The translations under genes were made by a program, and so were the position numbers. The notes under the pieces were generated by a model. That model searched no databases and had not been told where the DNA came from. It saw nothing but the letters and a program-made list of their open reading frames with translations. 24,936 nucleotides of DNA from an uncultured Thermoleophilia bacterium (GTDB lineage Bacteria > Actinomycetota > Thermoleophilia > Gaiellales > F1-60-MAGs149). The stretch is from NCBI GenBank assembly GCA_902806305.1, contig CADCWC010000218.1, positions 1 to 24,936 on the forward strand, read 5' to 3'. This document shows, one piece after another, positions 2-23,337 of the stretch (positions are counted from its first letter, which is position 1; each line of letters starts with the position of its first letter).

Positions 2-448
2 CTCGGCGATCTGCGCCGCGCAGGCCGCCGCCGTGTCCGCCAGGGCGCCCGCCGTCTCGGCTTCGCCGGTCAGGCGCGGGTTGCAGCGCGCGGCGACCGC
101 GTCGGCCAGCGCGGCGAGCGCCAGGCCGCGCTCGGCGAGCGCGAGCGGGACGTGGGCCGCCGCGCGCCACGCCTCCGCCACGTCGCCGCCCGCCCGTCGC
201 GCCTCACCGACGGCCGCGAACGCGGTCTCGTCGGCGGCGATGAAGGCGAGGCTCTCCACGCGGTGCGTCGCCGCGGCCCTCGCCTCGGCGGCCAGCGATC
301 CGTCGTGCGTCAGCGCACAGGCCTTCTCGACCAGCGCCGCGGCCATCGCCGCGAGCACGCCGACGGCCGCGCCCGCCGCGTGGGACGGCTGCGGCGCGGC
401 CATGGCGTCCAGGAAGGCGCCGAGCGACTCGTCCGGATAGCCGCTCAG
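2..448 (-). CDS. Cyclodeaminase/cyclohydrolase family protein (FTCD C-terminal-like), 3' end runs off the window
   Basis: Not in the ORF track; translated by hand as (L)[45 protein letters not shown]...[10 protein letters not shown]...[16 protein letters not shown]. This matches the FTCD_C pattern (SL..FL..LA..P..G.A.A...AMAA.LV; VPL; N.....D/E...A..LA). The frame is open to the edge. The likely start is CTG at 448-446 overlapping the glgC TGA; the first ATG is at 403. Confidence 0.7.
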
Positions 449-4302: not shown

Positions 4303-5058
4303 CTACGCGAGCCGCCGGCGGATGTCCTCGGCGGCGCGCCCGAGGCGGTCGCCGAGCTCTCCGAAGCGCGTCGGCGGCAGCCGTCGGGCGGTGCCCCAGA
4401 GCGTGAGGTAGGCGATCGGTCGGTCGGCGCGGCCACGCACCGCGACCGCGATGCCGTTCAGGTCGTCCTCGAACTCGTCGACGATCGTGGCGAAGCCCCG
4501 CTCCTCGACGACGGCGATCTCGGCCTCGAGCACGGCGCGGTCGGTGATGGTCGACGTGGCGAGTCGCGGCAGCGTCTCCGGCAGCCGGTGCGCGCGCTCC
4601 TCGGCCGTCATGCCGGCCAGCGCGGCCTTGCCGCTCGGCGTGGCGTGGAGCGGCGCCACGATGCCGATCCAGTCCACGGCGAGCACCGTCGACGGGCTGA
4701 CCTGGTCGATCGAGACCACACCGCCCGCCCGCAGGACGTTCAGGTTGGCGGTGGTCCCGGTCGCGAGCACGAGCGCCTCGAGCGTCGGACGCGCGGCCCG
4801 GGCCAGCAGCGCGTCCGGGTCCGCCGCGGAGGCGAGCCGGACAACCTCGTGGCCGACGACGTAGCGCCGGGCCGCGTCGCGCTCCACGAGCCCGTGCCGC
4901 TCGAGCGCCTGGAGCAGGCGCCAGGCGGTGCTGCGCGTGAGGGAGCAGCGGTCGGCCAGCTCGAGGGCCGTGAGCGGCTCGGGCGCCTCGGCGGTGGCGC
5001 GGAGCAGCGCGACGGCGCGGTCCACGCTCTGCGTGGCGGCTGCAGCCGGTTGCACCAT
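4303..5058 (-). CDS. IclR-family transcriptional regulator
   Basis: QSVDRAVALL...LELADRCSLTRSTAWRLLQALERHGLV (HTH), PLHATPSGKA, IAVAV; 251 aa; divergent from the amidohydrolase-fold/Rieske genes. Confidence 0.93.
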   Translation of the reverse strand: MVQPAAAATQSVDRAVALLRATAEAPEPLTALELADRCSLTRSTAWRLLQALERHGLVERDAARRYVVGHEVVRLASAADPDALLARAARPTLEALVLATGTTANLNVLRAGGVVSIDQVSPSTVLAVDWIGIVAPLHATPSGKAALAGMTAEERAHRLPETLPRLATSTITDRAVLEAEIAVVEERGFATIVDEFEDDLNGIAVAVRGRADRPIAYLTLWGTARRLPPTRFGELGDRLGRAAEDIRRRLA

Positions 5059-5059
5059 A

Positions 5060-5078
5060 TGGGATTCGATCCTACATT
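5060..5078. promoter_or_regulatory. AT-enriched divergent promoter region with near-palindrome TGGGAT-TCG-ATCCTA (candidate IclR operator) and TANNNT -10 candidates on both strands
   Basis: Only 48 bp lie between the two start codons; GGAT-N3-ATCC at 5062-5072; TACATT (+, 5073-5078) and TAGGAT (-, 5074-5069). Confidence 0.4.
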
Positions 5079-5106
5079 ACGGGCGCCGACCACGAAGGAG
5101 CGCGCC

Positions 5107-6195
5107 GTGCTGATCGACTGCGACATCCACGTCGGGTACGAGAGCCTGCTGGACCTGGTCCCGTACCTCGACGGACCCACGCGGGAGCATGTGCTGCACG
5201 CCGGCTCGAACGGGCTCGCGATGCCGAGCTACCCGTGGTACCACCCGACGGGCTGGATCCGGAAGGACGCCTATGACGCCGCCGCGACCGCCTCCGGCCG
5301 GCAGATCCCGGGCCAGACCCTGCCGACCCTGCAGCGGCTTCTGCTCGACCCCTTCGATGTCACGTACGGGATCCTGACGCCCGACGAGGCCGCCGCCTTC
5401 TCGATCTACCCGAACGCCCAGCTGGCCGCGCGGCTCGCGACGGCCTACAACGACTGGCTCGCCGAGCGGTGGCTGCAGGAGGACGCCCGACTTCGGGGCC
5501 TCGTGGTCGTGGCGGCCCAGCATCCCGAGGCCGCAGCCGACGAGATCCGGCGGCGCGCGTCGGACGACCGCTTCGTGGGCGTGTTCCTGCCCGGCGGCGC
5601 CCGCGCGCCCTACGGCAACGTCATCTACGACCCGATCTGGCGCGCCGCGGCCGAGCACGGCCTGCCGGTGGTCGTGCACACGCACTTCGACGGCGTCGGG
5701 CTGAGCTCCCCCGTGACGGCCGCGGGGCATCCCGACACGTACGCCGAGTACCACGTGCTCTGCGGTTCGGGCATGTACGGCCACTTCGTGTCGACGGTCT
5801 ACTCCGGCGTGTTCGAGCGCTACCCCGACGCCCGCATGGTGATGAGCGAGGGCGGGGTGGTGCCGTTCCTCGGCTACCTGTGGCGGCTCGACACCGACTG
5901 GAAGGCCTGCCGGAGCGAGATCCCGCACTGCCGCCGCCTGCCGTCGGAGTACGTCTGGGATCACGTCCGCTTCACGACCCAGCCGCTCGAGACGCCCGAG
6001 GACCCGTCCGACCTGTGGCCGATCATCCGGCACCTGCGGCCGGAGCGGACGCTGCTCTTCGCGAGCGACTACCCGCACTGGGACTTCGACGAGCCGACGC
6101 ACACGCTGCGGCTCCTGCCGGCGGAGATCCGCGACGCCGTCGCCTACCGCAACGCGGGCGAGCTGTTCCGTCTCGGCGCGCCCGTGCCGCTGTGA
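5107..6195 (+). CDS. Amidohydrolase_2-fold protein, probable dinuclear (Fe/Mn) oxygenase of the AibH/PtmU3 type
   Basis: GTG start after GAAGGAG RBS; DCDIH, AYNDWL..W, VHTH, SEGG, FTTQPLE, FASDYPHWD motifs; 362 aa; GTGA overlap with a Rieske protein. Confidence 0.85.
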   Translation: MLIDCDIHVGYESLLDLVPYLDGPTREHVLHAGSNGLAMPSYPWYHPTGWIRKDAYDAAATASGRQIPGQTLPTLQRLLLDPFDVTYGILTPDEAAAFSIYPNAQLAARLATAYNDWLAERWLQEDARLRGLVVVAAQHPEAAADEIRRRASDDRFVGVFLPGGARAPYGNVIYDPIWRAAAEHGLPVVVHTHFDGVGLSSPVTAAGHPDTYAEYHVLCGSGMYGHFVSTVYSGVFERYPDARMVMSEGGVVPFLGYLWRLDTDWKACRSEIPHCRRLPSEYVWDHVRFTTQPLETPEDPSDLWPIIRHLRPERTLLFASDYPHWDFDEPTHTLRLLPAEIRDAVAYRNAGELFRLGAPVPL

Positions 6196-6584
6196 GCACG
6201 ATCGGCTCCGATCGCGAGCTGCGCCTCGCGGCCTCGGCGCTGCCCCCTGCGGGCGAGATCCGGATGGTCGAGCTCGGCCGGCACCGCATCGGGCTCTTCC
6301 GGGTGGGCGACGAGGTGCACGCGCTCGCCGACCGCTGCCCGCATCGCGGCGCGCCGCTCTGCTCGGCGGGCGACGTCGTGACCGGCATCGAGCGACGGCC
6401 CGACGGCCGCCTCGAGCTCGGCCCGGCGGGCGCGCTCGTGCGCTGCCCGTGGCACAAGTGGGACTTCGACATCGCGAGCGGCGAGTGCGTCGTCGAGCCG
6501 CGCCTGCGTGTCCGCCGCTACCCCGTGCGCCACGACGGCGACGACGTGGTCGTGAGCCTCGACGGCGGGCTCGACCGGCCGTAG
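6192..6584 (+). CDS. Rieske [2Fe-2S] ferredoxin
   Basis: CPHRGAPL ... RCPWHKWDFD (CxH...CxxH); GTG start overlaps the upstream TGA (GTGA); 130 aa. Confidence 0.93.
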   Translation: MSTIGSDRELRLAASALPPAGEIRMVELGRHRIGLFRVGDEVHALADRCPHRGAPLCSAGDVVTGIERRPDGRLELGPAGALVRCPWHKWDFDIASGECVVEPRLRVRRYPVRHDGDDVVVSLDGGLDRP

Positions 6585-6596
6585 CGAGGGCCACGG

Positions 6597-7019
6597 GTGC
6601 TCGTCGGGGAACGGGCCGAGGAGGTCCGGGTGCTCCTGGAGCGCCTGGCGGCGTGGGCCGGCCGGCGTCCGGACGTCTGCGCGTTGGCGCTCGTCGGGTC
6701 GTGGGCGCGCGGCGCGGCGGGACCGACGTCCGACGTGGACGTCGTGCTGCTGACGACCGAGCCGTGGCGGTACGTCGACCACGTCGACTGGCTCGACGAC
6801 GTCGGCGCCGTCCACCTCCTGCAGACGCGGTCGTGGGGCGCCGTCACGGAGCGCCGCGTCGCCCTCCCGAGCGGCCTCGAGGTCGAGTTCGGGATCGGCT
6901 CGCCCTCGTGGGCCTCGACCGACCCGGTCGACCCCGGCACCCGCCGGGTCGTGACGGACGGCCTGGGCGTGCTTCACGACCCCGACGGGGCGCTCGCCCG
7001 GCTCGTCGCAGCGTGCTGA
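6597..7019 (+). CDS. Minimal nucleotidyltransferase-domain protein (pol-beta superfamily)
   Basis: LVGSWARG....SDVDVVLL (GS-DxD motif) plus a third acidic residue in LEVEFG; 140 aa. Confidence 0.8.
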   Translation: MLVGERAEEVRVLLERLAAWAGRRPDVCALALVGSWARGAAGPTSDVDVVLLTTEPWRYVDHVDWLDDVGAVHLLQTRSWGAVTERRVALPSGLEVEFGIGSPSWASTDPVDPGTRRVVTDGLGVLHDPDGALARLVAAC

Positions 7020-7148: not shown

Positions 7149-8717
7149 ATGCCGGCGAGGAGTACGGTGCGGGACGGCGCCGCGAACCGGGTGGAGACGT
7201 ACGTGACGACGCACTTCGAGCCCGTCTGGAACGCCGTCCAGCGGGTCGAGCCAGTGCGGCGTCGGGTCAACCGCGTCCTGGTCAACCGAGCCATCGCGAA
7301 GCTCCCGACCCGCCCGAACCCGCTGTCGACGAAGGCCGACTACACGTCGTGGGACTCGCTCACGGATCGTCGGTTCGACAGTCGGCACCTGCCGCCCGCG
7401 CCGGCGCGGAACGGCGGCGGGCCGAGCGTCGAGCAGGCCGCGGACCTCTTCCGGCGCGATGGCGAGATGGTGCCGTGCGAGAAGTCGACGGTGCTGTTCT
7501 CGTACTTCGCGGCGTGGTTCACCGACGGGTTCCTGCGCAGTGACCGCTCGGAGCCGCGGGACATGCGCCGGAACGACTCGAACCACGAGATCGACCTGAC
7601 CCAGCTCTACGGCGTGCGCACCGCGGAGACCGACCTCCTGCGTACGTTCGAGGGTGGCCGCCTGAAGAGCCAGATCCTGGAGGGGGAGGAGTACCCGCTC
7701 TTCCTCTGCGAGGGCGGCGAGGTCAAGCCCGAGTTCCGTGGCCTGACGGTCGTGCGCTGGGAGCAGCTCTCCCGCGAGCAGCGGGACGGGCTGTTCGCCA
7801 TGGGCAGCGACACCTCGAACCTCCACCTCGGCTTCCTGATGCTCGGCGTGCTGTTCCTGCGCGAGCACAACCGCCTCGCCGACGCGCTCCGCCGCGAGTA
7901 CCCCGGCTGGGACGACGAGCGGCTGTTCGGGACGGCCCGCAACATCCTCACGGTCGTGCTCATCAAGCTCGTGGTCGACGAGTACATCAACCACATCACG
8001 CCGTACCACTTCCGGTTCACCACCGACCCGACGTCGCTCGGCAACGCACCGTGGATGCGGCCGAACTGGATGGCCGTCGAGTTCAACCTGCTCTACCGGT
8101 GGCACAGCATGGTCCCGTCGACGTTCCGGATCGGCGGCCGCGACGTCGCCATCGACGACACGCTCTTCAACACCCGGCTGCTGGTCGAGCGCGGCCTGGG
8201 CGGGCACTTCGAGGACGCGACCGACCAGCCCGCGGGCCGGGTGGGCCTGTTCAACACCGAGGCCTACCTGCGTGACGCCGAGGTGGCGAGCATCCGACAG
8301 GGTCGGGAGGTCCGGCTCGCGTCCTACAACGACTAACGCGAGGCCTGCCGATTCCCGCGCGTGACGGCGTTCGAGCAGATCTCGTCCGACGAGCGCGTCC
8401 GCCGCGGCCTGCGGGACGTCTACGGCCACGTCGACGAGATCGAGTTCTACGTGGGGCTGTTCGCGGAGGACCGGCGCCCGAACTCGGTGCTGCCGTCGCT
8501 CATCGGACGGATGGTCGGGATCGACGCCTTCTCCCAGGCCTTCACGAACCCACTGCTCGCGCCGCGGATCTACACGGCGGCCACGTTCTCGCCGCTCGGG
8601 ATGGAGGTCATCCGCACGACGCGGACGCTCTCGGACGTGGTGCACCGCAACCTGCCGCCCGGTTCGCCGCGCCACCGCGTCGGCATGACGCGAAGCGACT
8701 GGCGGCGCGTCTCCTAG
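7149..8717 (+). pseudogene. Cyclooxygenase-like animal-type heme peroxidase/fatty-acid dioxygenase interrupted by an in-frame TAA at 8334-8336
   Basis: ORFs 7149-8336 and 8361-8717 share a frame. Read-through gives ...SYND*REACRFPRVTAFEQIS..., matching the COX N(E/D)YR...F.(S)F..(L/I) motif. Also IDLTQLYG, LFLREHNRL, WDDERLF.TAR.I, EFNLLYRWH, YG.VD.IEFYVGLFAE. The full product would be 522 aa. Confidence 0.85.
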
Positions 8718-9215: not shown

Positions 9216-9263
9216 CCGCGTCCTGGCGCCCCTCCGGTTCAGCCGAGCGGCGCCAGGACGCGG
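9216..9263. terminator. 15-bp perfect inverted repeat between convergent genes (likely bidirectional terminator)
   Basis: CCGCGTCCTGGCGCC (9216-9230) / GGCGCCAGGACGCGG (9249-9263), 18-nt loop containing the flavin reductase stop codon. Confidence 0.55.
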
Positions 9264-9841
9264 ACGAGCGGGTCGTTCAGGTCCTCGTCGTCCTCGAGCG
9301 AGAGCGGCCCGCCCTTGACGGCCAGGGCAGGCAGGCGCGGCAGCATCCGCAGCGCGCTCTCGTGGAACAGCAGCGGGGTCTCGTCGGCGCGGCCGCAGCG
9401 CTCGACGAGGCCGAACATCACGTCGTGGTCACCGACCCGGACCACCTCGTGGAGCTTGCAGACGAGGAGGGCGAGCCAGTGGTCGAGGATCGGCACGCCC
9501 TCCTCGTCGAGGTGATGGGAGACCGCGTCGAAGCGAGGCGCGTGGAAGCCGACGAACGCGCGCGCCGAGGAGATCTGGTCGTGAGCCAGCACGTGGATGG
9601 CGAACCGGCCCGAGGTCTTCGCCGCCTCGCAGGTGCGCGCGCCGATCTGCGAGCAGACGAGCACGATCGGCGGGTCGAGCGACACGCTGGTGAACGAGTT
9701 GGCCGTCATACCGCAGAGGGTGCCGTCCTCGGCCGCGGCCGAGACGATCGTCACCCCCGTCGGGTACGAGCTCATCACGGAGCGGAACGTGGCCGGGTCG
9801 AAGGCGTCGCCCAGCGAGGAGAGGTCGGACATGGACGTCAT
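9239..9841 (-). CDS. Flavin reductase family protein (HpaC/DszD-like)
   Basis: FR.VMS.YPTGVTIVS, GMTANSFTSVSLDPP.VLVC, GDHDV.FG.V, PLLF; the start may be at 9832 instead. Confidence 0.92.
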   Translation of the reverse strand: MTSMSDLSSLGDAFDPATFRSVMSSYPTGVTIVSAAAEDGTLCGMTANSFTSVSLDPPIVLVCSQIGARTCEAAKTSGRFAIHVLAHDQISSARAFVGFHAPRFDAVSHHLDEEGVPILDHWLALLVCKLHEVVRVGDHDVMFGLVERCGRADETPLLFHESALRMLPRLPALAVKGGPLSLEDDEDLNDPLVRVLAPLG

Positions 9842-9874
9842 TGTCCCCGGGTCCGGCCGGTTGCAGCAAGGAGA

Positions 9875-9903
9875 CGGGTCGGCGCCTCGCCGGCGCCGAC
9901 CCG
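9875..9903 (-). terminator. Hairpin downstream of the APC permease
   Basis: CGGGTCGGCGCC / GGCGCCGACCCG 12-bp stem, 5-nt loop, followed on the minus strand by TCTCCTT. Confidence 0.55.
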
Positions 9904-9935
9904 CCCGTCACCGCGTCGGGCGTCCGCGGCGTCGA

Positions 9936-11450
9936 TCAGTGGACGCCGGTGCCGGTCAGGACGCGCTCCTCGTCGGGCGTCCGTGGCGCGGGCATTCGCA
10001 GCGTCAGCTTCGACTTGTCCTCGACGATCACCCGGTAGGCGAAGAAGGCGAGCGACATCGCGAGGACGAAGACGCCGACCAGGAGCTCCTTGTACTCGCC
10101 GTAGCCGGTGAGCTTGAAGGAGAGCGACCCGACGACGAGGATGATGACGTCGTAGACGAGCAGGACGGCGGCGATCGGCACCCACGCCGGTCCGACGCGC
10201 AGGGGCCGCGGCCACGCCGGGCGGTCCCGGCGCAGCAGCAGGAAGGCGGAGACGGCCGCCACGTGGGCGAACACGTAGCCGAGGTTCGACATCGTCAGGA
10301 TCTGGATCACGGCCGTGGGGCCGGCGAACAGGATCGTGACCGCGATGTTCATGACGGCGTCCAGGGTCATCGCGTTCCCGGGCACATGCCGTCGGTTGGC
10401 CTTGCCGAGCCAGCGCAGCGTCATGTCCGCCCGCGAGATGCCGTAGAGGGCACGCGACCCGTCCATGGTCGCCGTGTTCATCGACAGCAGGATGCCCGCG
10501 CAGAGCAGGATCACCGCGACCGACGTGAACCCCGTCCCGAGGATCGCCTCGAGGGCGGTCGTGTAGAACGAGTAGGCGTTCTCGACCGTGATGTTCTGGT
10601 CGCCGACGATGCCGACCGCGCCGAGCGGCAGCAGGCCGTAGACGAGGATGCCGAACACCGCGGCGGCCCGCAGCGCCTTCGGCGTGTCGTTCACCGGGTC
10701 CTTGTACTCGGCCGCGAACGTGGCGCAGCACTCGAAGCCGTACGCCGACCAGCACATGATGTAGAGCCAGGCGATCACCAGGCGCAGGCCGTTGTCGCCG
10801 CCGAAGCTGCCCCAGTCGACGTTGTTCGAGAGGTTGTCGGCGCTCCAGTCGCCCGTCAGGTAGGGCAGGAACATCAGGATCGCGAGCGGGATCAGGAGCA
10901 GCGCGCCCGTGATGTACGAGACCCACACCGCCGGGCGGACGCCCATGATGTTCGACAGCCAGAGCGCGATGATCAGGAAGATCGCGACGAAGATCGGGAA
11001 CGTGAAGGTCACGTCGACGATGCCGAGGCCGAGCGTGCGGTTCCAGCCGGACTCCGGGTCCGCGGTCCCCTCGAAGAACTGCGCCTGGATCAGGCCGCCG
11101 ATGATGATGCCGTTGACGGAGAGGACGACCGACCAGCCGAGCCAGTACCCGAAGGCGGCCATCGGGCCGACGAACGACGCGTAGCGCTTCCAGCCCTCGT
11201 GGGCGTAGAAGGCGATGCCGCCCGCGCGGTCCGGGAACATCGTCGACATCTCGGAGTAGATGACGTTGTGCAGGGCGCCGACGCAGACCGCGATCAGCCA
11301 CACGATCACCGCGCCCCAGCCGCCGAGCGACACGACCGAGAACCCGAGACCCGTCAGCAGGAACGCCGGATTCGCCATCGCGACGACGAAGCCGTCGAAC
11401 CACGACATTGCCCGAGCGAGTTCGCCGTCCTCTACCTCTGCAACCGCCAT
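9936..11450 (-). CDS. APC-family amino acid/amine permease
   Basis: About 12 hydrophobic segments; E..T.FPDRAGGIA, GYWLGW, WSAYGFE....FAAEYKDP..DTPKAL, DGSRALYG.S, LRR..P.WPRP; GGAGAAGG RBS; 504 aa. Confidence 0.92.
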   Translation of the reverse strand: MAVAEVEDGELARAMSWFDGFVVAMANPAFLLTGLGFSVVSLGGWGAVIVWLIAVCVGALHNVIYSEMSTMFPDRAGGIAFYAHEGWKRYASFVGPMAAFGYWLGWSVVLSVNGIIIGGLIQAQFFEGTADPESGWNRTLGLGIVDVTFTFPIFVAIFLIIALWLSNIMGVRPAVWVSYITGALLLIPLAILMFLPYLTGDWSADNLSNNVDWGSFGGDNGLRLVIAWLYIMCWSAYGFECCATFAAEYKDPVNDTPKALRAAAVFGILVYGLLPLGAVGIVGDQNITVENAYSFYTTALEAILGTGFTSVAVILLCAGILLSMNTATMDGSRALYGISRADMTLRWLGKANRRHVPGNAMTLDAVMNIAVTILFAGPTAVIQILTMSNLGYVFAHVAAVSAFLLLRRDRPAWPRPLRVGPAWVPIAAVLLVYDVIILVVGSLSFKLTGYGEYKELLVGVFVLAMSLAFFAYRVIVEDKSKLTLRMPAPRTPDEERVLTGTGVH

Positions 11451-11598
11451 CGCATCGACCGCCTTCTCCGAGGGAACGTCCGGCCTAGGAAAGCGTCCGC
11501 CCAGGCAGGAGGCAAGTGTGGAGGATCTACCGTCTTCACGCCCGTTTTCCTGCCGGAAGTGCTATAGCCCCGGTGCGGACCGGAAGGAGAATTGCGGG

Positions 11599-11964
11599 AT
11601 GCTGCGTCAGGATCCACCGAAGATCACGATCACGTGCGACTGCGGCGAGGTCCACCGCCTTGCCTACGGCGACGAGGTGGCCTGCCGTTGCGGGCGCCGC
11701 TACGACACCTCGGCCATCCCGGCCGAGGACTACGCCGCGATCAGGGCGACGCGCCGGCGCTTCCGGCTGCTGCAGGGGGCGTTCGCCGTCGCCCTCGGCG
11801 GCCTGATGCTGGCCACGCTGCTCCTCCGGCCACGAGCGGCGGTCATCCTCGTGCCGCTGGTGCTGATGGTGTGGTTCGTCTACCTGCGCCCGCTGCTCCG
11901 GCGCTGGTACCGGCGACAGGTCGCCGAGCTCACGCTGCGCTGGACGCTCGAGGCCAAGGCGTAG
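11599..11964 (+). CDS. Hypothetical small membrane protein with N-terminal CxC...CxC motif and two TM helices
   Basis: GGAAGGAG RBS 9 nt before ATG 11599; ITITCDCGEVHRLAYGDEVACRCGRRYD, then two hydrophobic helices flanked by Arg clusters; GC3-rich codons; 121 aa. Confidence 0.72.
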   Translation: MLRQDPPKITITCDCGEVHRLAYGDEVACRCGRRYDTSAIPAEDYAAIRATRRRFRLLQGAFAVALGGLMLATLLLRPRAAVILVPLVLMVWFVYLRPLLRRWYRRQVAELTLRWTLEAKA

Positions 11965-12010
11965 CGGTGGGCGCACGTGTCCGGACGGCGCCGACGCGGG
12001 ACGCGGTCCG

Positions 12011-13273
12011 GTGCTGCTCGCGCTGACGAACGCCCGCGTCTTCACGGCGACGGGCGAGCCCGCGCTCGCGTCGGGCGTCGTCGTGGTGGAGGACGCCCGG
12101 ATCCGCTCCGTCGACCCCTGGCCGACCGAGCTCCCGGAGGGCTGCGTCGCCGTGGACCTCGCGGGCCGGACGCTCCTGCCCGGCTTCGTCGACGCCCACG
12201 TGCACCTCGTCTACCGGGAGGGCCTGGACGACTGGTACACGTTCGAGCTCGCCACGCCGCTCGAGGCCGCCGCCGTCGACGCGACGATCAACGCCGGTCG
12301 GCTGCTCGAGATGGGCATCACGTCGGTGCGTGACGTCGGCACGCGCGGCAACATCGCCGTGGTGCTGCGGGACGCGATCCGGGGCGGCCGGCTGGGTGGG
12401 CCGCGCGTCCGCGCGTCGAAGCAGATCATCTCCGTCTCGGGCGGTCTCACGGATGTCCACCCGAGCCACCTGCCGATCGACGGGCGGCACGCCGCGACGA
12501 CCGGCGAACGGGTGACGGGGCCGTGGGAGGCCCGCGACGCGGTCCGCCGTCAGGTCAAGGACGGCGTCGACTGGATCAAGGTCGAGGCGAGCGGCACGTT
12601 CAACAGCCCGTACTCGCCCGGCGATCGCGAGACGATGTCGGCCGAGGAGCTCCGGGCGATCGTGGACGAGGCCTCCGACAAGGGCCGCCCCGTCGCCTGC
12701 CACGCCGAGTCGCGACGGAGCATCCTGCGGGCCGCCGCCGCTGGCGTGCGGACGATCGAGCACGCCGTCGACCTGGACGACGCGGCCGTCGAGGCCGTCC
12801 TCGAGGCCGGCGCGGCGATCTGTCCGACGATGGGGATCTACCGCAACCTGGCCGTCCGCGGCCGTGAGTTCGGGTTCGCCGACGAGGTGGTGGAGCGCAA
12901 CCTGGCCAATCACCGCCGCCACGTGGAGTCGATCCGCCGGGCCCACCGCGCGGGGCTGACGATCATCGCCGGGAGCGACGCCGGCTCGTCCCGGTTCCCG
13001 CACGACGGCGCGCTGCTGCGGGAGATCTGCCTCTACGTCGAGCTGGTCGGGATGACCGCGGGCGAGGCGCTCGTGACCGCGACCCGCGCGGCCGCGACGG
13101 TGATCGGGCTCGGCGACGAGGTCGGCACGATCGAGGCGGGCAAGCGGGCCGACCTCGTCGTGATCGCCGGCGATCCGCTCGGGCGCATCACGACGCTGAC
13201 CGACCCGGGCGCCGTGGAAGCTGTGCTGCAGGACGGCCGCGTCGTCGCGGGGGCCCTCCCCGGAATGGGCTGA
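12011..13273 (+). CDS. Metal-dependent amidohydrolase (prolidase/imidazolonepropionase-like subgroup)
   Basis: LLPGFVDAHVHL (HxH), G.TSVRDVG, WIKVEASG (putative carbamylated Lys), CHAES, IEHA, AGSDAG, G.IE.GKRADLVV; 420 aa. Confidence 0.92.
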   Translation: MLLALTNARVFTATGEPALASGVVVVEDARIRSVDPWPTELPEGCVAVDLAGRTLLPGFVDAHVHLVYREGLDDWYTFELATPLEAAAVDATINAGRLLEMGITSVRDVGTRGNIAVVLRDAIRGGRLGGPRVRASKQIISVSGGLTDVHPSHLPIDGRHAATTGERVTGPWEARDAVRRQVKDGVDWIKVEASGTFNSPYSPGDRETMSAEELRAIVDEASDKGRPVACHAESRRSILRAAAAGVRTIEHAVDLDDAAVEAVLEAGAAICPTMGIYRNLAVRGREFGFADEVVERNLANHRRHVESIRRAHRAGLTIIAGSDAGSSRFPHDGALLREICLYVELVGMTAGEALVTATRAAATVIGLGDEVGTIEAGKRADLVVIAGDPLGRITTLTDPGAVEAVLQDGRVVAGALPGMG

Positions 13274-13280
13274 CGTCTCC

Positions 13281-13314
13281 GCCGGCCGGGAGCGCGACCG
13301 CGCTCCCGGCCGGC
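13281..13314. terminator. Bidirectional terminator hairpin
   Basis: GCCGGCCGGGAGCGC / GCGCTCCCGGCCGGC 15-bp perfect stem, 4-nt GACC loop, between convergent stops at 13273 and 13326. Confidence 0.75.
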
Positions 13315-13325
13315 GCGATCACCCG

Positions 13326-14723
13326 TCAGGCGGGCGAGCCGCCGTTCGATGAGCCGTCGGCCTCGCCGAGCAGGCGCTCGGCCAGCTTGCGCTTCTCCTC
13401 GGGACCGAGCTTCTTGATCTCGTTCTCCATCGCGCGCGTGTTGACGACCTGGTTCCAGTAGTCGAGCGAGTCGTAGCCGAGCAGCGCCGTCTTGCCCACG
13501 AACTGGCGCAGCACCTCGTTCGTCGGGCCCATGACCCAGCCCGCCTTGCCGTCGCGCAGGTAGCGCTCGATGTCGAGCGGCTTCTTCTTGTAGCCCGTGC
13601 CGCCCGTGCAGTGCAGCATCTTGTCGACGACCCGGGCGACGTTCTTCGCGGCCCGGAACTTGATCTGCCACAGGAACGGCAGGTAGTCCGCGCGGGCGAG
13701 CTCGCCGACCGGCGGATTGCGTCGCGCGTCGTCCGTGACCTTGTCGAGCGCCTGGGCGACCGAGAACGTGAACGCACGGGCCGAGTTCGTCTCGATGATC
13801 GCCTCGCCGACGGCGTCCTGGATCGTCGGGTAGTCGCAGACCCGCAGGCCGACGTCCTTGTGCGTCTTGCGGGTCGTGTGGGAGATCGCGATGTCGATCG
13901 CGCCGAGCGCGATGCCGCTCCAGACGCCGGAGGACCCGATCAGGAAGTTCGGATCGACGGACTCGTCGTTCGAGGCGGCGCCGTCACCGATCGGACCGAC
14001 GAGCTGCTGCTCGGGCACGAAGCCCCAGTCGACGAGCAGGGAGCCGGACTGGTTGCCCCGCAGGCCGAGGGCGTCCCACTCCTGCGGCTCGGCCTGGATC
14101 TGCGAGGCGTCGATCAGGAAGACGGACAGGTTCGAGTAGTCGCCGCCGTAGTCGGGCGACGTCGTCTGGCAGACGTAGAAGTCGGCGAAGCCGCCCGAGG
14201 TCGTCCACGACGCCTTCTTCAGCACCTCGAAGCCGCCCTCGACCCTACGGGCGCCCGACGCCATCGGGTACCAGAAGTGGGAGCCGGTCTCGGGGTCCGA
14301 GTAGGAGAGCGTGCCGATCAGCCCGTCCTTGACCTTCTTCAGGTAGTTCTCGACGAAGTAGTCCGTCTGGCGCAGGCGGAGCGTCTCGACGGCGCCCGTG
14401 TGCATCACGTAGCACATGGCACAGGAGGCGTCGCCGTAGCGCGCGATCGTCTCCGTGACCCACGCGTAGAAGACGTGGTTCTGGCCCAGCCCGCCCCACT
14501 CCTTGGGCAGCATGACGCCGAGGAAGCCGTCCGGCCCGAGCGCCTCGAGGCTCTCGCGCGGGAACGTCAGCGTGGCGTCGTTGTGACGCGCCCGCGGCCG
14601 GATCTCCGTCTCGCAGATCTCCCGAAGGCGCGCCAGGAGTCCGATCTGCTCCTCGTTCAGGAACCAGACCGGGTCGAACATCGGGTCGAGTCCGTTCTTG
14701 GTCTCCTCGGCCACCGCGGCCAT
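13326..14723 (-). CDS. Acyl-CoA dehydrogenase-fold flavoprotein (possibly a flavin-dependent monooxygenase)
   Basis: D....FP.E.L..LG..G.LG..LP.EWGGLG, SDPETGSH, K.SW.TSGG.AD, W..LGLRG..SG, GGTGY....IERYLRD; GAAGGAGG RBS; 465 aa. Confidence 0.88.
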   Translation of the reverse strand: MAAVAEETKNGLDPMFDPVWFLNEEQIGLLARLREICETEIRPRARHNDATLTFPRESLEALGPDGFLGVMLPKEWGGLGQNHVFYAWVTETIARYGDASCAMCYVMHTGAVETLRLRQTDYFVENYLKKVKDGLIGTLSYSDPETGSHFWYPMASGARRVEGGFEVLKKASWTTSGGFADFYVCQTTSPDYGGDYSNLSVFLIDASQIQAEPQEWDALGLRGNQSGSLLVDWGFVPEQQLVGPIGDGAASNDESVDPNFLIGSSGVWSGIALGAIDIAISHTTRKTHKDVGLRVCDYPTIQDAVGEAIIETNSARAFTFSVAQALDKVTDDARRNPPVGELARADYLPFLWQIKFRAAKNVARVVDKMLHCTGGTGYKKKPLDIERYLRDGKAGWVMGPTNEVLRQFVGKTALLGYDSLDYWNQVVNTRAMENEIKKLGPEEKRKLAERLLGEADGSSNGGSPA

Positions 14724-14780
14724 ACGTCTCCTCCTTCGTCACCACCTGACCGCTCGTCAGGCGACTCATCGCCGGCGCCG

Positions 14781-14786
14781 ATCGTA
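14781..14786 (-). promoter_or_regulatory. -10 element (TACGAT) of the ACAD-fold gene
   Basis: TACGAT on the minus strand, about 57 nt before ATG 14723; no clear -35, consistent with an activator-dependent promoter. Confidence 0.4.
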
Positions 14787-14943
14787 CCGTCGGGCCAAGG
14801 TGGAGCATACGTGCGGAAGCCACACCGCGGACGGCCCGGGGGTGGGCGCCTCCCCGGGTTGCCGACCGGGGTGGGGTCGCCTACGCTCGGCCCCCGCAGG
14901 TCCCTCGGAGGACCGGCCCACGAGACACACACACGGAGGATGC

Positions 14944-16419
14944 ATGGGAGCGATCGAGAGCGGGCTCCAGCTCGAGAACCTGGTGTCGACCGTGCTCGCG
15001 TCGCCGAGGGTGGCCCCGCCGCCCGCGACGCTCGGCGAGGCCCGGAACGCGCCGGGGCGTGACGCGCAGATCGCCGACATCCAGGCCCGGATCGAGCGCG
15101 AGGGGATCCAGTACGTCTTCTTCCAGCAGGTGTCGGTGTCCGGGCACGTCAACGGCAAGGGCGTCGTCTCGGACTTCTTCGCCCAGGTGGCGAAGAACGG
15201 CTACCAGCTCGTCTACGGCGCCACGGCCGACCTGTTCCTCGACCGGCACGAGAACTACATCGGGTTCGGCCCGCACACCTCCGAGCTCGCGGCGATCGCC
15301 GACCTCGACACGTTCAGCGTGCTCCCGTGGGACCCGCGCGTGGCCCGCGTGTTCTGCGACTGCTACGACACGGAGACGGGCGGGCTGCTCGAGTCGGACC
15401 CCCGGCAGAACCTGAAGGTGGTGGCCGACGAGGTCGAGGCCGAGCTGTCGGAGCTGCTCGGCACGCAGGTCAGCTTCCTGTGCGGGATCGAGCCGGAGAT
15501 GATGTGGTTCGGGCAGAAGCCGTCGGGCGGCCAGGAGCCGATCGGGCTGACCAAGCCCTGGTGCTACCACATCAACCAGTTCGAGCAGCTGCGCGAGGTG
15601 ATCCTCGACGTCGTGGCCTACGGCAAGGCGCTCGGGCTGCGGATGAGCTACGGCGACCACGAGGACTCGCCGGGCCAGCTCGAGCTGAACTTCGCGTTCG
15701 ACCGCGCCTCGCGGACGGCCGACAACCTGACCACGTACCGCCAGATCTGCGCGGCGGTCGGCCGGAAGCACGGCCTGTTCCCGTCGTTCATGCCGAAGCC
15801 GTTCACGGGCGTGTCGGCGAACGGGGCGCACCACCACTTCACGCTCGTCGACGAGTCGGGTCGGAACGTCTTCTACGACCCGAACGGCCCGGCCACGCTC
15901 TCGGACGCGGGGCGGAGCTTCCTCGGCGGCATCCTCAAGCACTACCGCGCGCTGACCTGCGTCTCGGCGCCGACGGTCAACTCGTACAAGCGCTTCTTCG
16001 ACGAGGGCTTCTGGGCCCCGATCCACGCCGACTACGGCTGGCAGAACCGGACCTGCGCCGTGCGGGTGGCCGGCTCGGGGCGCTTCGAGTACCGCTCGGT
16101 CGACTCGGCCTGCAACCCGTACCTGACGCAGGCCGCGCTGCTGACCTGCGGGCTCGAGGGCATCCGCGACAAGATCGACCCCGGTCCGCCGCAGTCCGAG
16201 AACGTCTACGAGGTGCTCGACCGGGGCACCACGATCGGCCGCGTGCCGAACACGCTCGGCGAGGCCCTGGACGCGCTGCACGAGGACGAGACGGTCAGGG
16301 GGGCGCTCCGCGGGCACCTCTACGAGGTCTTCCGGCACTACAAGCGCGACGAGTGGGAGCGCTTCTGCTCGGCCGTCACCGACTGGGAGCGCGACCAGTA
16401 CTTCGACGTCCTGCCGTGA
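14944..16419 (+). CDS. gmaS: Gamma-glutamylmethylamide synthetase-like glutamine synthetase-family protein (GlnT/GmaS)
   Basis: GIEPE, DHEDSPGQLELNF, FMPKPF.G.SANGAHHH, YKR....WAP....YG..NRT..VR, RFEYRS.D..CNPYL. The DHED motif and adjacency to glxBCD/mgsABC favour GmaS over GlnA. GGAGG RBS; 491 aa. Confidence 0.8.
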   Translation: MGAIESGLQLENLVSTVLASPRVAPPPATLGEARNAPGRDAQIADIQARIEREGIQYVFFQQVSVSGHVNGKGVVSDFFAQVAKNGYQLVYGATADLFLDRHENYIGFGPHTSELAAIADLDTFSVLPWDPRVARVFCDCYDTETGGLLESDPRQNLKVVADEVEAELSELLGTQVSFLCGIEPEMMWFGQKPSGGQEPIGLTKPWCYHINQFEQLREVILDVVAYGKALGLRMSYGDHEDSPGQLELNFAFDRASRTADNLTTYRQICAAVGRKHGLFPSFMPKPFTGVSANGAHHHFTLVDESGRNVFYDPNGPATLSDAGRSFLGGILKHYRALTCVSAPTVNSYKRFFDEGFWAPIHADYGWQNRTCAVRVAGSGRFEYRSVDSACNPYLTQAALLTCGLEGIRDKIDPGPPQSENVYEVLDRGTTIGRVPNTLGEALDALHEDETVRGALRGHLYEVFRHYKRDEWERFCSAVTDWERDQYFDVLP

Positions 16420-16425
16420 TCGGCG

Positions 16426-16486
16426 GCCGGTGCGAGGGACGCACGCGTCCCGAGGGCCGTATGTGCATTTCGTCCCTCGCACCGGC
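16426..16486. repeat. 61-bp palindromic element, 16-bp perfect arms
   Basis: GCCGGTGCGAGGGACG (16426-16441) / CGTCCCTCGCACCGGC (16471-16486), starting 6 nt after the gmaS stop. Confidence 0.8.
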
Positions 16487-16617
16487 GGCCGGATGTGGCC
16501 GAATCGCTCCTAGACGGGGCCTCTAGGCCTCGATACGCTCCAGCGCCACGGGCCGGTATGGAGCTTCCCTCCACCGTGCGCCCGTCGGCCGTCACTCCGA
16601 AGCGAGGCAGACCAGAG

Positions 16618-17541
16618 ATGTGCGGGATCGCCGGGATCATCTACCGCGACGGGGAGCACGACGTGGGGCGCGACCTCACGCGCATGCTCCAGTCGATGAA
16701 GCACCGCGGGCCGGACTCCACCGGCTTCGCGCTCTACGGGCCGGTCGGTCCGCAGATCGTCGTGCGCTACACGCTCGCCGACGCGAACGACCCGCGCGGC
16801 ATGCACTTCGACGAGCGCATGGTCGGCAACCGACGTGAGGTCTCCTCGCGCCTGCGCAGCGCGGGCGCCGTCATCGAGGAGCTCGAGCAGGAGACGGCCT
16901 ACGCCGACCGCGCGGTGCTGACCTACGACGGCGACCTGAAGACGCTCACCGACCTGCTCGAGGACATCCAGGGCTGCGAGGTCCTGTCGCTCGGCCACTC
17001 GCTCGAGATCGTCAAGGACCTCGGCGACGCCGAGGCCGTCTGCTCGCAGTACGGCCTGGAGACGTTCCGCGGCACGCACGCCATCGGCCACGCGCGGATG
17101 GCCACCGAGTCCGAGGTCGACATCTCGGGCGCCCACCCGTACTGGGCCTACCCGTTCCCGGACGTGGCCGTGGTCCACAACGGCCAGCTGACGAACTACT
17201 TCCAGTGGCGCCGCCGCCTGGAGCGGAGCGGCCACCGGTTCCAGTCCGAGTGCGACTCGGAGATCATCGCCGTCTACGTGGCCGAGCGGATGACGGAGGG
17301 CTACACCCTCGAGGAGGCCATGCGGCAGAGCCTCGAGGAGCTCGACGGCGTCTTCACCTACATGTGCGTGACCGCGGACGCCCTCGGCGTGGCGAAGGAC
17401 GAGATGGCCGCCAAGCCGCTCGTGCTCTACGAATCGGACCAGCTCGTGGCCGTGGCCTCCGAGGGCACGGCGATCGAGACGCTGACCGACGGCGACACGT
17501 ACGACCCCTACGAGGGCGAGGTGATGGTATGGCAGCGGTAG
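16618..17541 (+). CDS. mgsA: Class II glutamine amidotransferase-like subunit (N-methylglutamate synthase subunit A, GlxB)
   Basis: N-terminal MCGIAG (Ntn Cys), HRGPDSTG, HAIGHARMATES, HP, VHNGQLTNY, SECDSE, LDG.FT; 307 aa. Confidence 0.85.
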   Translation: MCGIAGIIYRDGEHDVGRDLTRMLQSMKHRGPDSTGFALYGPVGPQIVVRYTLADANDPRGMHFDERMVGNRREVSSRLRSAGAVIEELEQETAYADRAVLTYDGDLKTLTDLLEDIQGCEVLSLGHSLEIVKDLGDAEAVCSQYGLETFRGTHAIGHARMATESEVDISGAHPYWAYPFPDVAVVHNGQLTNYFQWRRRLERSGHRFQSECDSEIIAVYVAERMTEGYTLEEAMRQSLEELDGVFTYMCVTADALGVAKDEMAAKPLVLYESDQLVAVASEGTAIETLTDGDTYDPYEGEVMVWQR

Positions 17542-18317: not shown

Positions 18318-18331
18318 GACCGGGAGACCAC

Positions 18332-20361: not shown

Positions 20362-20370
20362 CCGCCGTGT

Positions 20371-20399
20371 GACCGGCGCCCGTGGGGCGGGCGCCGGTC
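20371..20399 (+). terminator. Terminator hairpin ending the mgsABC-orf187 unit
   Basis: GACCGGCGCCCG / CGGGCGCCGGTC 12-bp stem, 5-nt loop, 9 nt after the stop. Confidence 0.7.
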
Positions 20400-21414: not shown

Positions 21415-21508
21415 GTCAGGCGCCCCGACGGACGGTGGTACGCTGGCGGCCGGTCGTGCCGTCCGAACCCCGAGGGAGCGCCGTCCTGCCCGTACCGATC
21501 ACTGCCGC

Positions 21509-23308: not shown

Positions 23309-23337
23309 GCGCTCCTCCGCCCGCATCGGCGCCGCGG

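What the first reader, a model, noticed from the sequence alone, without database searches (positions are those of the whole stretch)
5107..6584. Amidohydrolase-fold protein + Rieske ferredoxin: likely an orphan dinuclear monooxygenase, not a hydrolase
Seen: DxDxH, H (VHTH), E (SEGG) and SDYPHWD ligand set, translationally coupled to a Rieske protein, divergent from IclR. Established: AibH1H2/AibG (2-aminoisobutyrate hydroxylase) and PtmU3 are amidohydrolase-fold dimetal monooxygenases carrying a DYPHx(D/E)-type ligand motif; the Aib system uses a Rieske protein and a reductase. Inference: a one-subunit variant with unknown substrate. No ferredoxin reductase is encoded beside it, so electrons come from elsewhere.
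Basis: partly seen in the sequence, partly recalled or inferred. Interest (0 to 1): 0.65.

Follow-up and report, generated by a model that had tools for sequence, protein, structure and literature searches.

The report
Mislabelled two-metal oxygenase with Rieske partner
The gene that looks like an "amidohydrolase" is almost certainly an oxygen-activating two-metal (probably manganese-iron) hydroxylase fed by the small Rieske iron-sulfur protein encoded next to it; this enzyme family was published in 2021-2026, so this is an uncharacterised new member and not a new kind of system.

Summary
ORF 5107-6195 (+, 362 aa, PF04909) carries the complete ligand set of the published amidohydrolase-related dinuclear oxygenases (AROs): D6-I-H8, H191, E248 and D321-Y-P-H324-W-D326. 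Its TGA overlaps the GTG of a 130-aa Rieske ferredoxin (6192-6584; C49-x-H51...C85-x-x-H88). An IclR gene (4303-5058, minus strand) lies 48 bp upstream, divergent.

Liu et al. (JACS 2024, 2026) found such enzymes precisely by their Rieske neighbours. They solved structures of single-subunit members (SfbO 8SM6; D3EI84 8SM7) and defined about 17,000 AROs by the D-x-P-H-x-D/E motif.

The window protein is closest to 8SM7 (E 5e-72, about 37% identity, TM 0.90-0.94). It meets all three published criteria for the low-potential, Mn-using subclass.

- 75 of 80 related genomic loci keep a Rieske gene within 3 kb.
- No ferredoxin reductase is adjacent here, beside the four other ARO-Rieske cassettes of this MAG, or (FNR type) in about 90 related loci.
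- The substrate is unknown.
- In the orthologue clade (Gaiellales/Thermoleophilia, at least 56% identity) neighbours vary, but methyl-group and betaine metabolism genes recur, a weak hint of an N-demethylase role.

This scan has found the same kind before on other DNA.

The parts
4303..5058 (-). IclR-family transcriptional regulator (251 aa), divergent from the oxygenase operon; presumed substrate- or product-responsive repressor
   Evidence: Pfam HTH_IclR 2e-15 and IclR_C 1e-24. An IclR gene lies directly upstream (divergent or co-directional) of the orthologue in about 12 of 18 lineages of the clade.
5059..5106 (.). 48-bp intergenic region. It holds the RBS AAGGAG (5095-5100), a TAnnnT-type hexamer TACATT (5073-5078) and an imperfect palindrome TGGGAT-TCG-ATCCTA (5060-5074) that could be the IclR operator. 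This is weak and read by eye.
   Evidence: Sequence read. The consensus promoter/terminator scan found nothing. The repeat finder reported only CCATATGG at 5055-5062. Orthologous intergenic regions carry different palindromes.
5107..6195 (+). Amidohydrolase-related dinuclear oxygenase (ARO), low-potential (Mn/Fe-type) subclass, 362 aa. Ligands: D6, H8, H191, E248 (bridging), D321 (bridging), H324; second-sphere D326. Published marker positions: gamma1 I7, gamma2 T91, gamma3 A319, gamma4 W325, gamma5 F327.
   Evidence: Pfam PF04909 7e-35. PDB phmmer: 8SM7 5e-72, 8SM6 5e-67. AF2 model pLDDT 87.5, Foldseek TM 0.89-0.94 to 8SM6/8SM7. Ligand invariance in 80 relatives. Motif definitions from PMC13154177.
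6192..6584 (+). Rieske-type [2Fe-2S] ferredoxin (130 aa), translationally coupled (GTGA). Cluster ligands C49, H51, C85, H88. Long 33-residue spacer and a C-P-W-H-K-W-D motif typical of ARO-linked Rieske proteins.
   Evidence: Pfam Rieske 2e-15 and Rieske_2 1.5e-10. The NirD model scores below its cut-off. 74 of 75 ARO-linked homologues show C-x-H-x30-35-C-x-x-H, mostly C-P-W-H-[GKQ]-W-[ED].
6597..7019 (+). Small nucleotidyltransferase-fold gene 13 bp downstream. It is possibly co-transcribed but probably not part of the system.
   Evidence: Pfam NTP_transf_2 2e-6. No homologue was found next to the ARO in any of 80 related loci.

Best explanation
The locus is a three-gene module: an IclR regulator, an ARO oxygenase and its Rieske ferredoxin.

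Proposed mechanism:
1. NAD(P)H reduces an unlinked flavoprotein reductase.
2. The reductase reduces the Rieske [2Fe-2S] protein (6192-6584).
3. The Rieske protein docks on the oxygenase near W325/F327 and delivers two electrons, one at a time, to a carboxylate-bridged two-metal site. That site is built on the TIM barrel by D6, H8, H191, E248, D321 and H324, with D326 hydrogen-bonded to a water on metal 2.
4. The reduced site binds O2 and forms a high-valent oxidant that hydroxylates an aliphatic C-H bond of a small polar substrate.

By the published sequence rules the site should prefer Mn/Fe (or tolerate Mn) rather than strictly Fe2. IclR presumably represses the divergent operon until the substrate or product binds.

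What is shown and what is inferred:
- Shown here: gene structure, fold, complete ligand set, subclass markers and conserved Rieske linkage.
- Inferred from characterised relatives (AibH1H2, SfbO): O2 dependence, electron path, metal identity and hydroxylation chemistry.
- Substrate: unknown. My best guess, at about 25%, is an N-methylated amine or amino-acid derivative that is demethylated through hydroxylation of the N-methyl carbon.
For: - Sequence: the nearest solved proteins are all dinuclear oxygenases. These are 8SM7 5e-72, SfbO 8SM6 5e-67, 8SM8 3e-49 and AibH1/H2 about 1e-46. PtmU3 scores 7e-13 and the decarboxylases 2e-15 or weaker.
- Structure: AF2 model pLDDT 87.5, pTM 0.91. Foldseek gives TM 0.89-0.94 to 8SM6/8SM7, 0.82-0.86 to AibH1H2, 0.75 to PtmU3 and 0.7 or less to decarboxylases.
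- Motifs: N-terminal D-x-H and C-terminal D-x-P-H-x-D are present. They are reported absent from all characterised PF04909 hydrolases and decarboxylases (PMC13154177). All ligand columns are invariant in 80 relatives.
- Subclass: gamma1 = Ile, gamma2 = Thr, gamma4 = Trp match the 'Mn-dependent' row of Table 1 of PMC13154177. gamma5 = Phe is the aromatic residue proposed to stack on the Rieske partner.
- Linkage: a Rieske homologue lies within 3 kb in 75 of 80 loci, on the same strand in 67 and directly downstream (170 bp or less) in 52. Orthologues show the same 4-bp overlap.
- Chemistry precedent: AibH1H2-AibG-AibF hydroxylates 2-aminoisobutyrate (PMC7782822). SfbO performs O2-dependent hydroxylation of the C-H next to nitrogen, leading to dealkylation (PMC10811679).
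Against: - Nothing here measures metals, O2 dependence or activity.
- The natural substrates of the closest structural relatives (8SM7, 8SM8, 8SM9, SfbO) are themselves unknown, so function is transferred only at the level of reaction class.
- No reductase is linked. None of the PF14759 type was found in the genome, which is only 70.7% complete.
- SfbO's sulfonate-binding R232/R235 align with H216/C219 here, so substrate specificity cannot be copied.
- The gamma2 position was assigned by pairwise alignment to SfbO, not from the paper's master alignment.
Confidence: 0.85

Rival explanations
1. It is an ARO-Rieske oxygenase whose specific job is oxidative N-demethylation (or N-dealkylation) of a methylated amine, betaine or N-methyl amino acid. 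Hydroxylation of the N-methyl carbon gives a hemiaminal that collapses to formaldehyde plus the demethylated amine. This refines the best explanation rather than contradicting it.
For: Within the orthologue clade (at least 56% identity) methyl-group and one-carbon genes recur near the pair:
- PF02574 homocysteine/betaine-type S-methyltransferase lies in the same operon in L116 (4-bp overlap with the Rieske gene) and within 2.5-7 kb in L084, L108 and L109.
- L108 also has formaldehyde-activating enzyme Fae, a Zn-ADH and an enolase-superfamily gene directly upstream.
- L115/L004 place the pair between an MttB-family methyltransferase/corrinoid/RACo/MTHFR set and a DMGDH-like gene with ETF.
- Creatinase/M24 genes are adjacent in L081 and L110.

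Background PF02574 density in relatives is about 1 per Mb. About 0.3 would be expected in 18 neighbourhoods of 16 kb, against 4 seen.

A paralogous ARO-Rieske cassette in the same MAG (C249) also abuts a PF02574 gene. The window itself carries a gmaS/mgsABC-like island 8 kb downstream. SfbO provides the chemical precedent.
Against: - The association was noticed post hoc.
- It is present in only about 5-8 of 18 lineages.
- The genes involved differ from locus to locus.
- Relatives are not independent.
- Several orthologues, and the window itself, sit among unrelated housekeeping genes.
Confidence: 0.25
2. It is an ARO that does oxidative chemistry other than hydroxylation, such as oxidative decarboxylation or desaturation like BarH/LynB7/DolJ/E0U9F9, or N-oxygenation.
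For: The superfamily contains such enzymes (PMC13154177). The ligand set alone does not fix the reaction outcome.
Against: Those enzymes are high-potential, diiron, largely Rieske-less AROs with a hydrophilic gamma1 and a non-aromatic gamma4. The window protein has the opposite markers and a Rieske partner. No thiazoline synthase or other biosynthetic cluster genes are nearby.
Confidence: 0.08
3. It is a conventional PF04909 metal-dependent hydrolase or decarboxylase with a mononuclear Zn/Mn site, and the Rieske gene is an unrelated neighbour.
For: Pipeline annotations of all homologues read 'TIM-barrel metal-dependent hydrolase' or 'amidohydrolase'. The Pfam family is named Amidohydro_2.
Against: - The second-metal ligands D321, H324 and D326 are invariant.
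- The N-terminal motif is D-x-H, not that of the characterised hydrolases and decarboxylases.
- Similarity to decarboxylases is far weaker (about 57 orders of magnitude in E-value) than to oxygenases.
- The Rieske gene is translationally coupled and conserved in 75 of 80 loci across many phyla.
Confidence: 0.04

Closest known systems
D3EI84 of 'Geobacillus' (Paenibacillus) sp. Y412MC10, PDB 8SM7, an orphan low-potential ARO found by its Rieske neighbour (Liu et al., JACS 2024, PMC10811679)
   Same: - Best sequence match: E 5e-72, about 37% identity over the full length; TM 0.90/0.94.
- Same D-V/I-H and D-Y-P-H-W-D-F/W motifs.
- Same E-x-H at window positions 214-216.
- Single-subunit enzyme with an adjacent Rieske ferredoxin.
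- Natural substrate unknown.
   Different: - Only about 37% identical.
- Different phylum (Bacillota versus a Gaiellales-like actinobacterium).
- The window clade has its own invariant residues (H46, W44, W50, R52, D54, H193).
- The window clade usually has an IclR neighbour.
SfbO of Litorilinea aerophila (A0A540VG95; PDB 8SM6, 8SMA, 9BU9, 9BUA), with its Rieske partner SfbR
   Same: - E 5e-67, 35% identity, TM 0.89-0.91.
- Identical ligand set.
- gamma4 is Trp and gamma5 is aromatic.
- Rieske partner present.
- Cambialistic Mn/Fe or Fe2 C-H hydroxylase chemistry, which serves as the mechanistic model.
   Different: SfbO's sulfate/sulfonate-binding N67, R232 and R235 align with H46, H216 and C219 here. 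A sulfonate substrate is therefore unlikely.
AibH1H2-AibG-AibF, the 2-aminoisobutyrate hydroxylase of Rhodococcus wratislaviensis (PDB 6M1W, 8FUL-8FUO; PMC7782822, PMC10401708)
   Same: - Same fold and the same six ligands. AibH2 D25, H27, H211, E265, D337, H340 plus D342 correspond to D6, H8, H191, E248, D321, H324 plus D326.
- Rieske ferredoxin as electron donor.
- O2-dependent aliphatic hydroxylation.
   Different: - About 29% identity (E about 1e-46).
- AibH is a heterotetramer with a degenerate Zn subunit, AibH1. The window has only one PF04909 gene.
- AibF reductase is encoded in the aib operon; no reductase is encoded here.
- An AibH1H2-like two-gene version does exist elsewhere in this MAG, on contig C316.
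PtmU3 / DitZ / BarH-like high-potential diiron AROs
   Same: Same superfamily and the same D-x-P-H-x-D/E motif.
   Different: - E 7e-13 and TM 0.75 to PtmU3.
- These have a hydrophilic gamma1, a Phe/Tyr gamma2 and a non-aromatic gamma4, and they usually lack Rieske partners.

Membership tests
Amidohydrolase-related dinuclear oxygenases (ARO; PMC10811679, PMC13154177) | PF04909 (amidohydrolase_2) TIM-barrel fold | tested here: met
   Pfam PF04909 7.4e-35, full-length match 1-289/289. AF2 model TM 0.89-0.94 to 8SM6/8SM7.
Amidohydrolase-related dinuclear oxygenases (ARO; PMC10811679, PMC13154177) | N-terminal D-x-H motif on the first beta strand (ligands of metal 1) | tested here: met
   D6-I7-H8 lie within predicted strand 3-9. 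They are invariant in 80 relatives. Definition taken.
Amidohydrolase-related dinuclear oxygenases (ARO; PMC10811679, PMC13154177) | C-terminal D-x-P-H-x-D/E motif preceded by about 200 residues or more | tested here: met
   D321-Y-P-H324-W-D326. D, P, H, W and D are invariant in 80 relatives.
Amidohydrolase-related dinuclear oxygenases (ARO; PMC10811679, PMC13154177) | Remaining ligands: one more His and a bridging Glu (AibH2 H211, E265) | tested here: met
   H191 aligns with the single His of SfbO ('vhfg') and of 8SM7 ('ihpg'). E248 aligns with their Glu. Both are invariant. The ligand list comes from PMC7782822.
Amidohydrolase-related dinuclear oxygenases (ARO; PMC10811679, PMC13154177) | Redox-active dinuclear Fe/Mn cofactor and O2-dependent turnover | not testable with these tools
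   Requires purified protein (ICP, UV-vis, EPR, activity assays).
Low-potential, Mn-using ARO subclass (Table 1 of PMC13154177) | gamma1 hydrophobic, gamma2 hydrophilic, gamma4 aromatic | tested here: met
   gamma1 = I7 and gamma4 = W325, read directly. gamma2 = T91, assigned by alignment to the Thr that ends strand 2 of SfbO. Among 80 relatives gamma1 is V/I in 75, gamma2 is T/N in 58 and gamma4 is W in 80. The gamma2 assignment is an inference.
Low-potential, Mn-using ARO subclass (Table 1 of PMC13154177) | Adjacent Rieske ferredoxin and an aromatic gamma5 at the docking surface | tested here: met
   The Rieske gene overlaps the ARO stop codon. gamma5 = F327, and is F/Y in 78 of 80 relatives. 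Rieske linkage holds in 75 of 80 loci.
AibH1H2-type heteromeric hydroxylase | A second, degenerate PF04909 subunit (AibH1-like) encoded beside the catalytic subunit | tested here: not met
   Only one PF04909 match lies on the window's contig (C218:5113-6174). No second copy appears in the Pfam survey of the window.
Three-component monooxygenase operon (oxygenase + ferredoxin + reductase, as in aibH1H2GF) | Ferredoxin:NAD(P)+ reductase encoded in the same cluster | tested here: not met
   None in the window. No PF14759 in the MAG, which is 70.7% complete. Two unlinked FNR-type genes lie on C462 and C170. No FNR homologue was found in about 90 related loci.
Rieske [2Fe-2S] ferredoxin (PF00355) | C-x-H ... 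C-x-x-H cluster-binding motif in a small soluble protein | tested here: met
   C49-P-H51 and C85-P-W-H88. Pfam Rieske 2.3e-15. The NirD model scores 53.8 bits, below its 74.65-bit cut-off.
Classical PF04909 decarboxylases/hydrolases (LigW, ACMSD, gamma-resorcylate decarboxylase, LigI/LigJ) | Mononuclear (or metal-free) site with non-D-x-H N-terminal motifs and no D-x-P-H-x-D/E loop | tested here: not met
   The window has both ARO motifs. Similarity to these enzymes is E 2e-15 or weaker and TM 0.7 or less.

The most novel reading that the evidence does not exclude
The Thermoleophilia/Gaiellales clade to which this gene belongs (at least 56% identity, usually with an IclR gene) may be a previously unrecognised class of oxidative N-demethylase for methylated amines or betaines. 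It would be built on a Mn/Fe amidohydrolase-fold oxygenase plus a Rieske ferredoxin, and would stand alongside the Rieske-oxygenase type (GbcAB/BmoAB, Stc2, CntAB) and the flavin type (DMGDH, sarcosine oxidase). The recurring S-methyltransferase, MttB/corrinoid, Fae, DMGDH/ETF and creatinase neighbours, and the N-methylglutamate-pathway island in this window, are compatible with this reading but do not prove it.
Probability: 0.22. Interest if true: 0.55.

Novelty: new member of a known kind. Interest (0 to 1): 0.3.

Why it matters
The gene is mis-annotated everywhere as a hydrolase. Recognising it as an O2-activating Mn/Fe oxygenase changes how the metabolism of these uncultured soil actinobacteria is read.

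None of the Rieske-linked single-subunit AROs has a known natural substrate. A clade with a compact IclR-oxygenase-ferredoxin module and recurring methyl-metabolism neighbours is therefore a reasonable entry point for finding one.

The principle itself (an amidohydrolase fold acting as a dinuclear oxygenase, found through its Rieske neighbour, with Mn/Fe preference predictable from sequence) is already published. The gain is incremental.

Tried and rejected
- **Natural ARO-Rieske fusions.** Database proteins of 449-486 aa looked like fusions (P0120, P0066, P0111). The alignment shows frameshifted C-termini that re-enter the Rieske frame. They are assembly or gene-calling artefacts and show only adjacency.
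- **Conserved accessory genes.** The window's SDR, nucleotidyltransferase, peroxidase, DUF1428 and flavin reductase were searched in 80 related loci. None is conserved; there is one distant SDR hit.
- **Other candidate neighbours.** Alpha/beta-hydrolase, M24 and SBP_bac_5 genes seen in L081, L107 and L110 are not general.
- **Reductase search.** There is no PF14759 in the MAG. Two FNR-type genes lacking a Fer2 domain are unlinked. No reductase lies beside the other four cassettes. No FNR homologue was found in related loci.
- **H193 as a ligand.** Rejected, because it is specific to the window's clade.
- **Regulatory signals.** The consensus scan found no promoter or terminator. The repeat finder found no convincing operator. 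Orthologous intergenic regions carry different palindromes.
- **Newer literature.** A search for later characterised AROs found only the two Rittle-laboratory ARO papers beyond the AibH papers already in hand.
Full report
**Anatomy**

The window is about 72% G+C, so long spurious ORFs abound. Third-position GC was used to pick out the real genes.

- The finding covers two co-directional genes. The first runs 5107-6195 (+), with a GTG start 6 nt after AAGGAG (5095-5100), and encodes 362 aa.
- All homologues start at the same M-L-I-D-C-D, which fixes the start codon.
- Its TGA (6193-6195) overlaps the GTG (6192-6194) of a 130-aa ORF ending at 6584.
- The same 4-bp overlap is seen in orthologues from other assemblies.
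- An IclR-family gene (4303-5058, minus strand) diverges 48 bp upstream.
- Other neighbours are a convergent SDR/epimerase gene upstream of IclR, a small nucleotidyltransferase gene 13 bp downstream of the Rieske gene, and an animal-haem-peroxidase-like gene broken by one in-frame TAA.

**What the two proteins are**

- The first protein matches Pfam PF04909 end to end (7e-35). No NCBIfam model names it.
- Against all PDB sequences the best matches are not hydrolases. They are the dinuclear oxygenases 8SM7 (5e-72), SfbO 8SM6 (5e-67), 8SM8 (3e-49), AibH1/AibH2 (about 1e-46) and 8SM9 (2.5e-45).
- PtmU3 scores 7e-13 and the LigW/gamma-resorcylate/ACMSD decarboxylases 2e-15 or weaker.
- An AlphaFold2 model built on 52 homologues (pLDDT 87.5, pTM 0.91) superposes on 8SM6 and 8SM7 with TM 0.89-0.94. 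The values are 0.82-0.86 for AibH1H2, 0.75 for PtmU3 and 0.7 or less for the decarboxylases.
- The second protein is a Rieske [2Fe-2S] ferredoxin (Pfam 2e-15) with all four ligands: C49-P-H51 and C85-P-W-H88. It scores below the NirD cut-off.

**Literature**

- Hibi et al. 2021 (PMC7782822) showed that AibH1H2, AibG (Rieske) and AibF (FMN reductase) hydroxylate 2-aminoisobutyrate. They listed the AibH2 ligands as D25, H27, H211, E265, D337 and H340, with D342 in the second sphere.
- Powell et al. 2023 (PMC10401708) showed that the active cofactor is Mn/Fe.
- Liu et al. 2024 (PMC10811679) named the class 'amidohydrolase-related dinuclear oxygenases' (AROs).
  - They found new members by looking for PF04909 genes next to small Rieske genes.
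  - They solved the single-subunit enzymes SfbO (8SM6), D3EI84 (8SM7), B6JH23 (8SM8) and W7L2Y2 (8SM9).
  - They showed O2-dependent hydroxylation of the C-H next to nitrogen, leading to dealkylation, by SfbO.
- Liu et al. 2026 (PMC13154177) defined the family by an N-terminal D-x-H and a C-terminal D-x-P-H-x-D/E motif.
  - They counted about 17,000 members and 3,307 Rieske-associated candidates.
  - They split the family into high-potential diiron and low-potential Mn-using enzymes, using positions gamma1, gamma2 and gamma4.
  - They proposed that aromatic gamma5 contacts the Rieske partner.

**Membership**

- The window protein has D6-I7-H8, H191, E248 and D321-Y-P-H324-W325-D326-F327.
- In an alignment of the window protein with 76 relatives from genomes and 3 paralogues of the same MAG, D4, D6, H8, H191, E248, D321, P323, H324, W325 and D326 are invariant. 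gamma1 is V/I in 75 of 80, gamma4 is W in 80 of 80 and gamma5 is F/Y in 78 of 80.
The ligand is therefore H191, which aligns with the single His of SfbO and 8SM7.
- gamma1 = Ile, gamma2 = Thr91 (aligned with the Thr that ends strand 2 in SfbO; an inference) and gamma4 = Trp satisfy the published 'Mn-dependent' rule.
- It is not an AibH1H2-type heteromer. Only one PF04909 gene lies on this contig.

**Is the Rieske linkage real?**

- A scan of one genome per prokaryotic species found more than 590 related loci. In the best 80, a homologue of the window's Rieske protein lies within 3 kb in 75, on the same strand in 67 and directly downstream (170 bp or less) in 52. Two of the five loci without one run out of contig within about 400 bp of the gene, leaving little or no room for a downstream Rieske gene.
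- These Rieske proteins form a recognisable subtype with a long spacer (C-x-H-x30-35-C-x-x-H; 33 in the window) and a C-P-W-H-[GKQ]-W-[ED] motif. Other Rieske proteins in the same MAG have the usual 13-21-residue spacers.

**Reductase**

- No ferredoxin reductase is encoded in the window.
- The source genome is a MAG of 2.78 Mb in 516 contigs, 70.7% complete. It has no PF14759 match and two unlinked FNR-type genes without a ferredoxin domain.
- The MAG holds five ARO-Rieske cassettes: C218 (this window), C316, C36, C202 and C249. The C316 cassette is AibH1H2-like, with a motif-less PF04909 gene upstream. None of the other four has a reductase beside it.
- No FNR homologue occurs in about 90 related loci. 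A shared, unlinked reductase is thus the rule for this family rather than a peculiarity of this locus.

**Distribution and context**

- Close relatives (56-81% identity) come from Gaiellales, Gaiellaceae, Thermoleophilia and Solirubrobacteraceae MAGs.
- At 50% clustering the clade collapses to two or three full-length clusters. 534 clusters in the library match at E 1e-30 or better.
- The next relatives (46% identity or less) include many Paenibacillus, Chloroflexota, Verrucomicrobiota and others.
- In the orthologue clade only the ARO-Rieske pair is constant. An IclR gene lies directly upstream in about 12 of 18 lineages. The window's other neighbours are not conserved.
- Neighbours that recur without being universal belong to methyl-group or methylated-amine metabolism:
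  - a PF02574 S-methyltransferase in the same operon (L116) or within 2.5-7 kb (L084, L108, L109);
  - Fae plus a Zn-ADH plus an enolase-superfamily gene (L108);
  - an MttB-family methyltransferase, corrinoid protein, RACo and MTHFR on one side, and a DMGDH-like gene with ETF on the other (L115, syntenic with L004);
  - creatinase/M24 genes (L081, L110).
- PF02574 occurs at about one copy per Mb in relatives. About 0.3 copies would be expected in 18 neighbourhoods of 16 kb, against four observed.
- In the window's own MAG, the C249 cassette also abuts a PF02574 gene. The window itself carries a gmaS/mgsABC-like island, a permease and a SoxB-like flavoprotein 3-19 kb downstream.
- This pattern was noticed post hoc, the lineages are related, and many orthologues sit among housekeeping genes. 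I treat it as a hint (about 0.2-0.25) that the substrate is an N-methylated amine or amino-acid derivative. SfbO's sulfonate-binding Arg residues are replaced here by H216 and C219, so a sulfonate is unlikely.

**Mechanism proposed**

NAD(P)H passes electrons to an unlinked flavoprotein reductase, then to the Rieske [2Fe-2S] protein, then to the Mn/Fe (or Fe2) site of the ARO. O2 activation there leads to hydroxylation of an aliphatic C-H bond, possibly an N-methyl group followed by hemiaminal collapse. IclR controls the divergent operon.

The genes, fold, ligands, subclass markers and linkage are shown here. The redox chain, metal identity and chemistry are inferred from AibH1H2 and SfbO.

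**Verdict**

Earlier follow-ups in this scan reached the same conclusion on other genomes. It is a new, uncharacterised member of a known kind. Interest is modest, and is raised slightly by the compact regulon, the five-fold paralogy in a small genome and the possible link to methylated-amine metabolism.

Noticed in passing
window 7149-8717 (stop at 8334-8336): An animal-haem-peroxidase/cyclooxygenase-like gene is interrupted by a single in-frame TAA (AAC GAC TAA CGC). The same frame continues for 127 codons and still matches the Pfam model. This could be a recent pseudogene or a sequencing error.
   Followed up: partly
own genome contigs C316 (11940-14169), C36 (509-1932), C202 (1708-2819), C249 (1980-3457): The 2.78-Mb, 71%-complete MAG carries at least five ARO-Rieske cassettes, each with D-x-P-H-W-D and a long-spacer Rieske protein. 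The C316 cassette is AibH1H2-like, with a motif-less PF04909 gene upstream. The two paralogues compared (C316 and C249) are only 38-40% identical to the window protein.
   Followed up: partly
own genome contig C249:965-1846 and loci L116:9448-10365, L108:10593-11621, L109:1335-3131, L084:1332-2399: PF02574 (homocysteine/betaine-type S-methyltransferase) genes recur next to ARO-Rieske pairs. In L116 the gene is in the same operon. The family is unusually abundant in this lineage, at about 3-4 copies per genome.
   Followed up: partly
L115:1-17131 (and syntenic L004): A 65%-identical orthologue sits inside a quaternary-amine demethylation cluster. On one side are an MttB-family methyltransferase, a corrinoid protein, RACo, a pterin-binding methyltransferase and MTHFR. 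On the other are a DAO/amine oxidase gene that overlaps the Rieske stop codon, an Fe-S CCG oxidoreductase, ETF alpha/beta and a DMGDH-like gene.
   Followed up: no
window 9239-24675: The region holds a flavin reductase, an amino-acid permease, an Amidohydro_1 gene, an ACAD-fold protein and a glutamine-synthetase-like gene. It also holds GATase, GXGXG and glutamate-synthase-like genes (an N-methylglutamate-pathway-like set), a second IclR, PucR and a DAO flavoprotein. Together these look like a methylated- or primary-amine utilisation island 3-19 kb from the oxygenase.
   Followed up: partly
proteins P0120, P0066, P0111 (metagenome gene calls): Apparent 449-486-aa 'ARO-Rieske fusion' proteins are frameshifted read-throughs of adjacent genes, not real fusions.
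   Followed up: yes
Rieske genes next to AROs in L001-L080 and window 6192-6584: ARO-associated Rieske ferredoxins share a 30-35-residue spacer between the two ligand pairs and a C-P-W-H-[GKQ]-W-[ED] signature. Other Rieske proteins of the same genome have spacers of 13-21 residues. This signature could be used to find AROs.
   Followed up: partly
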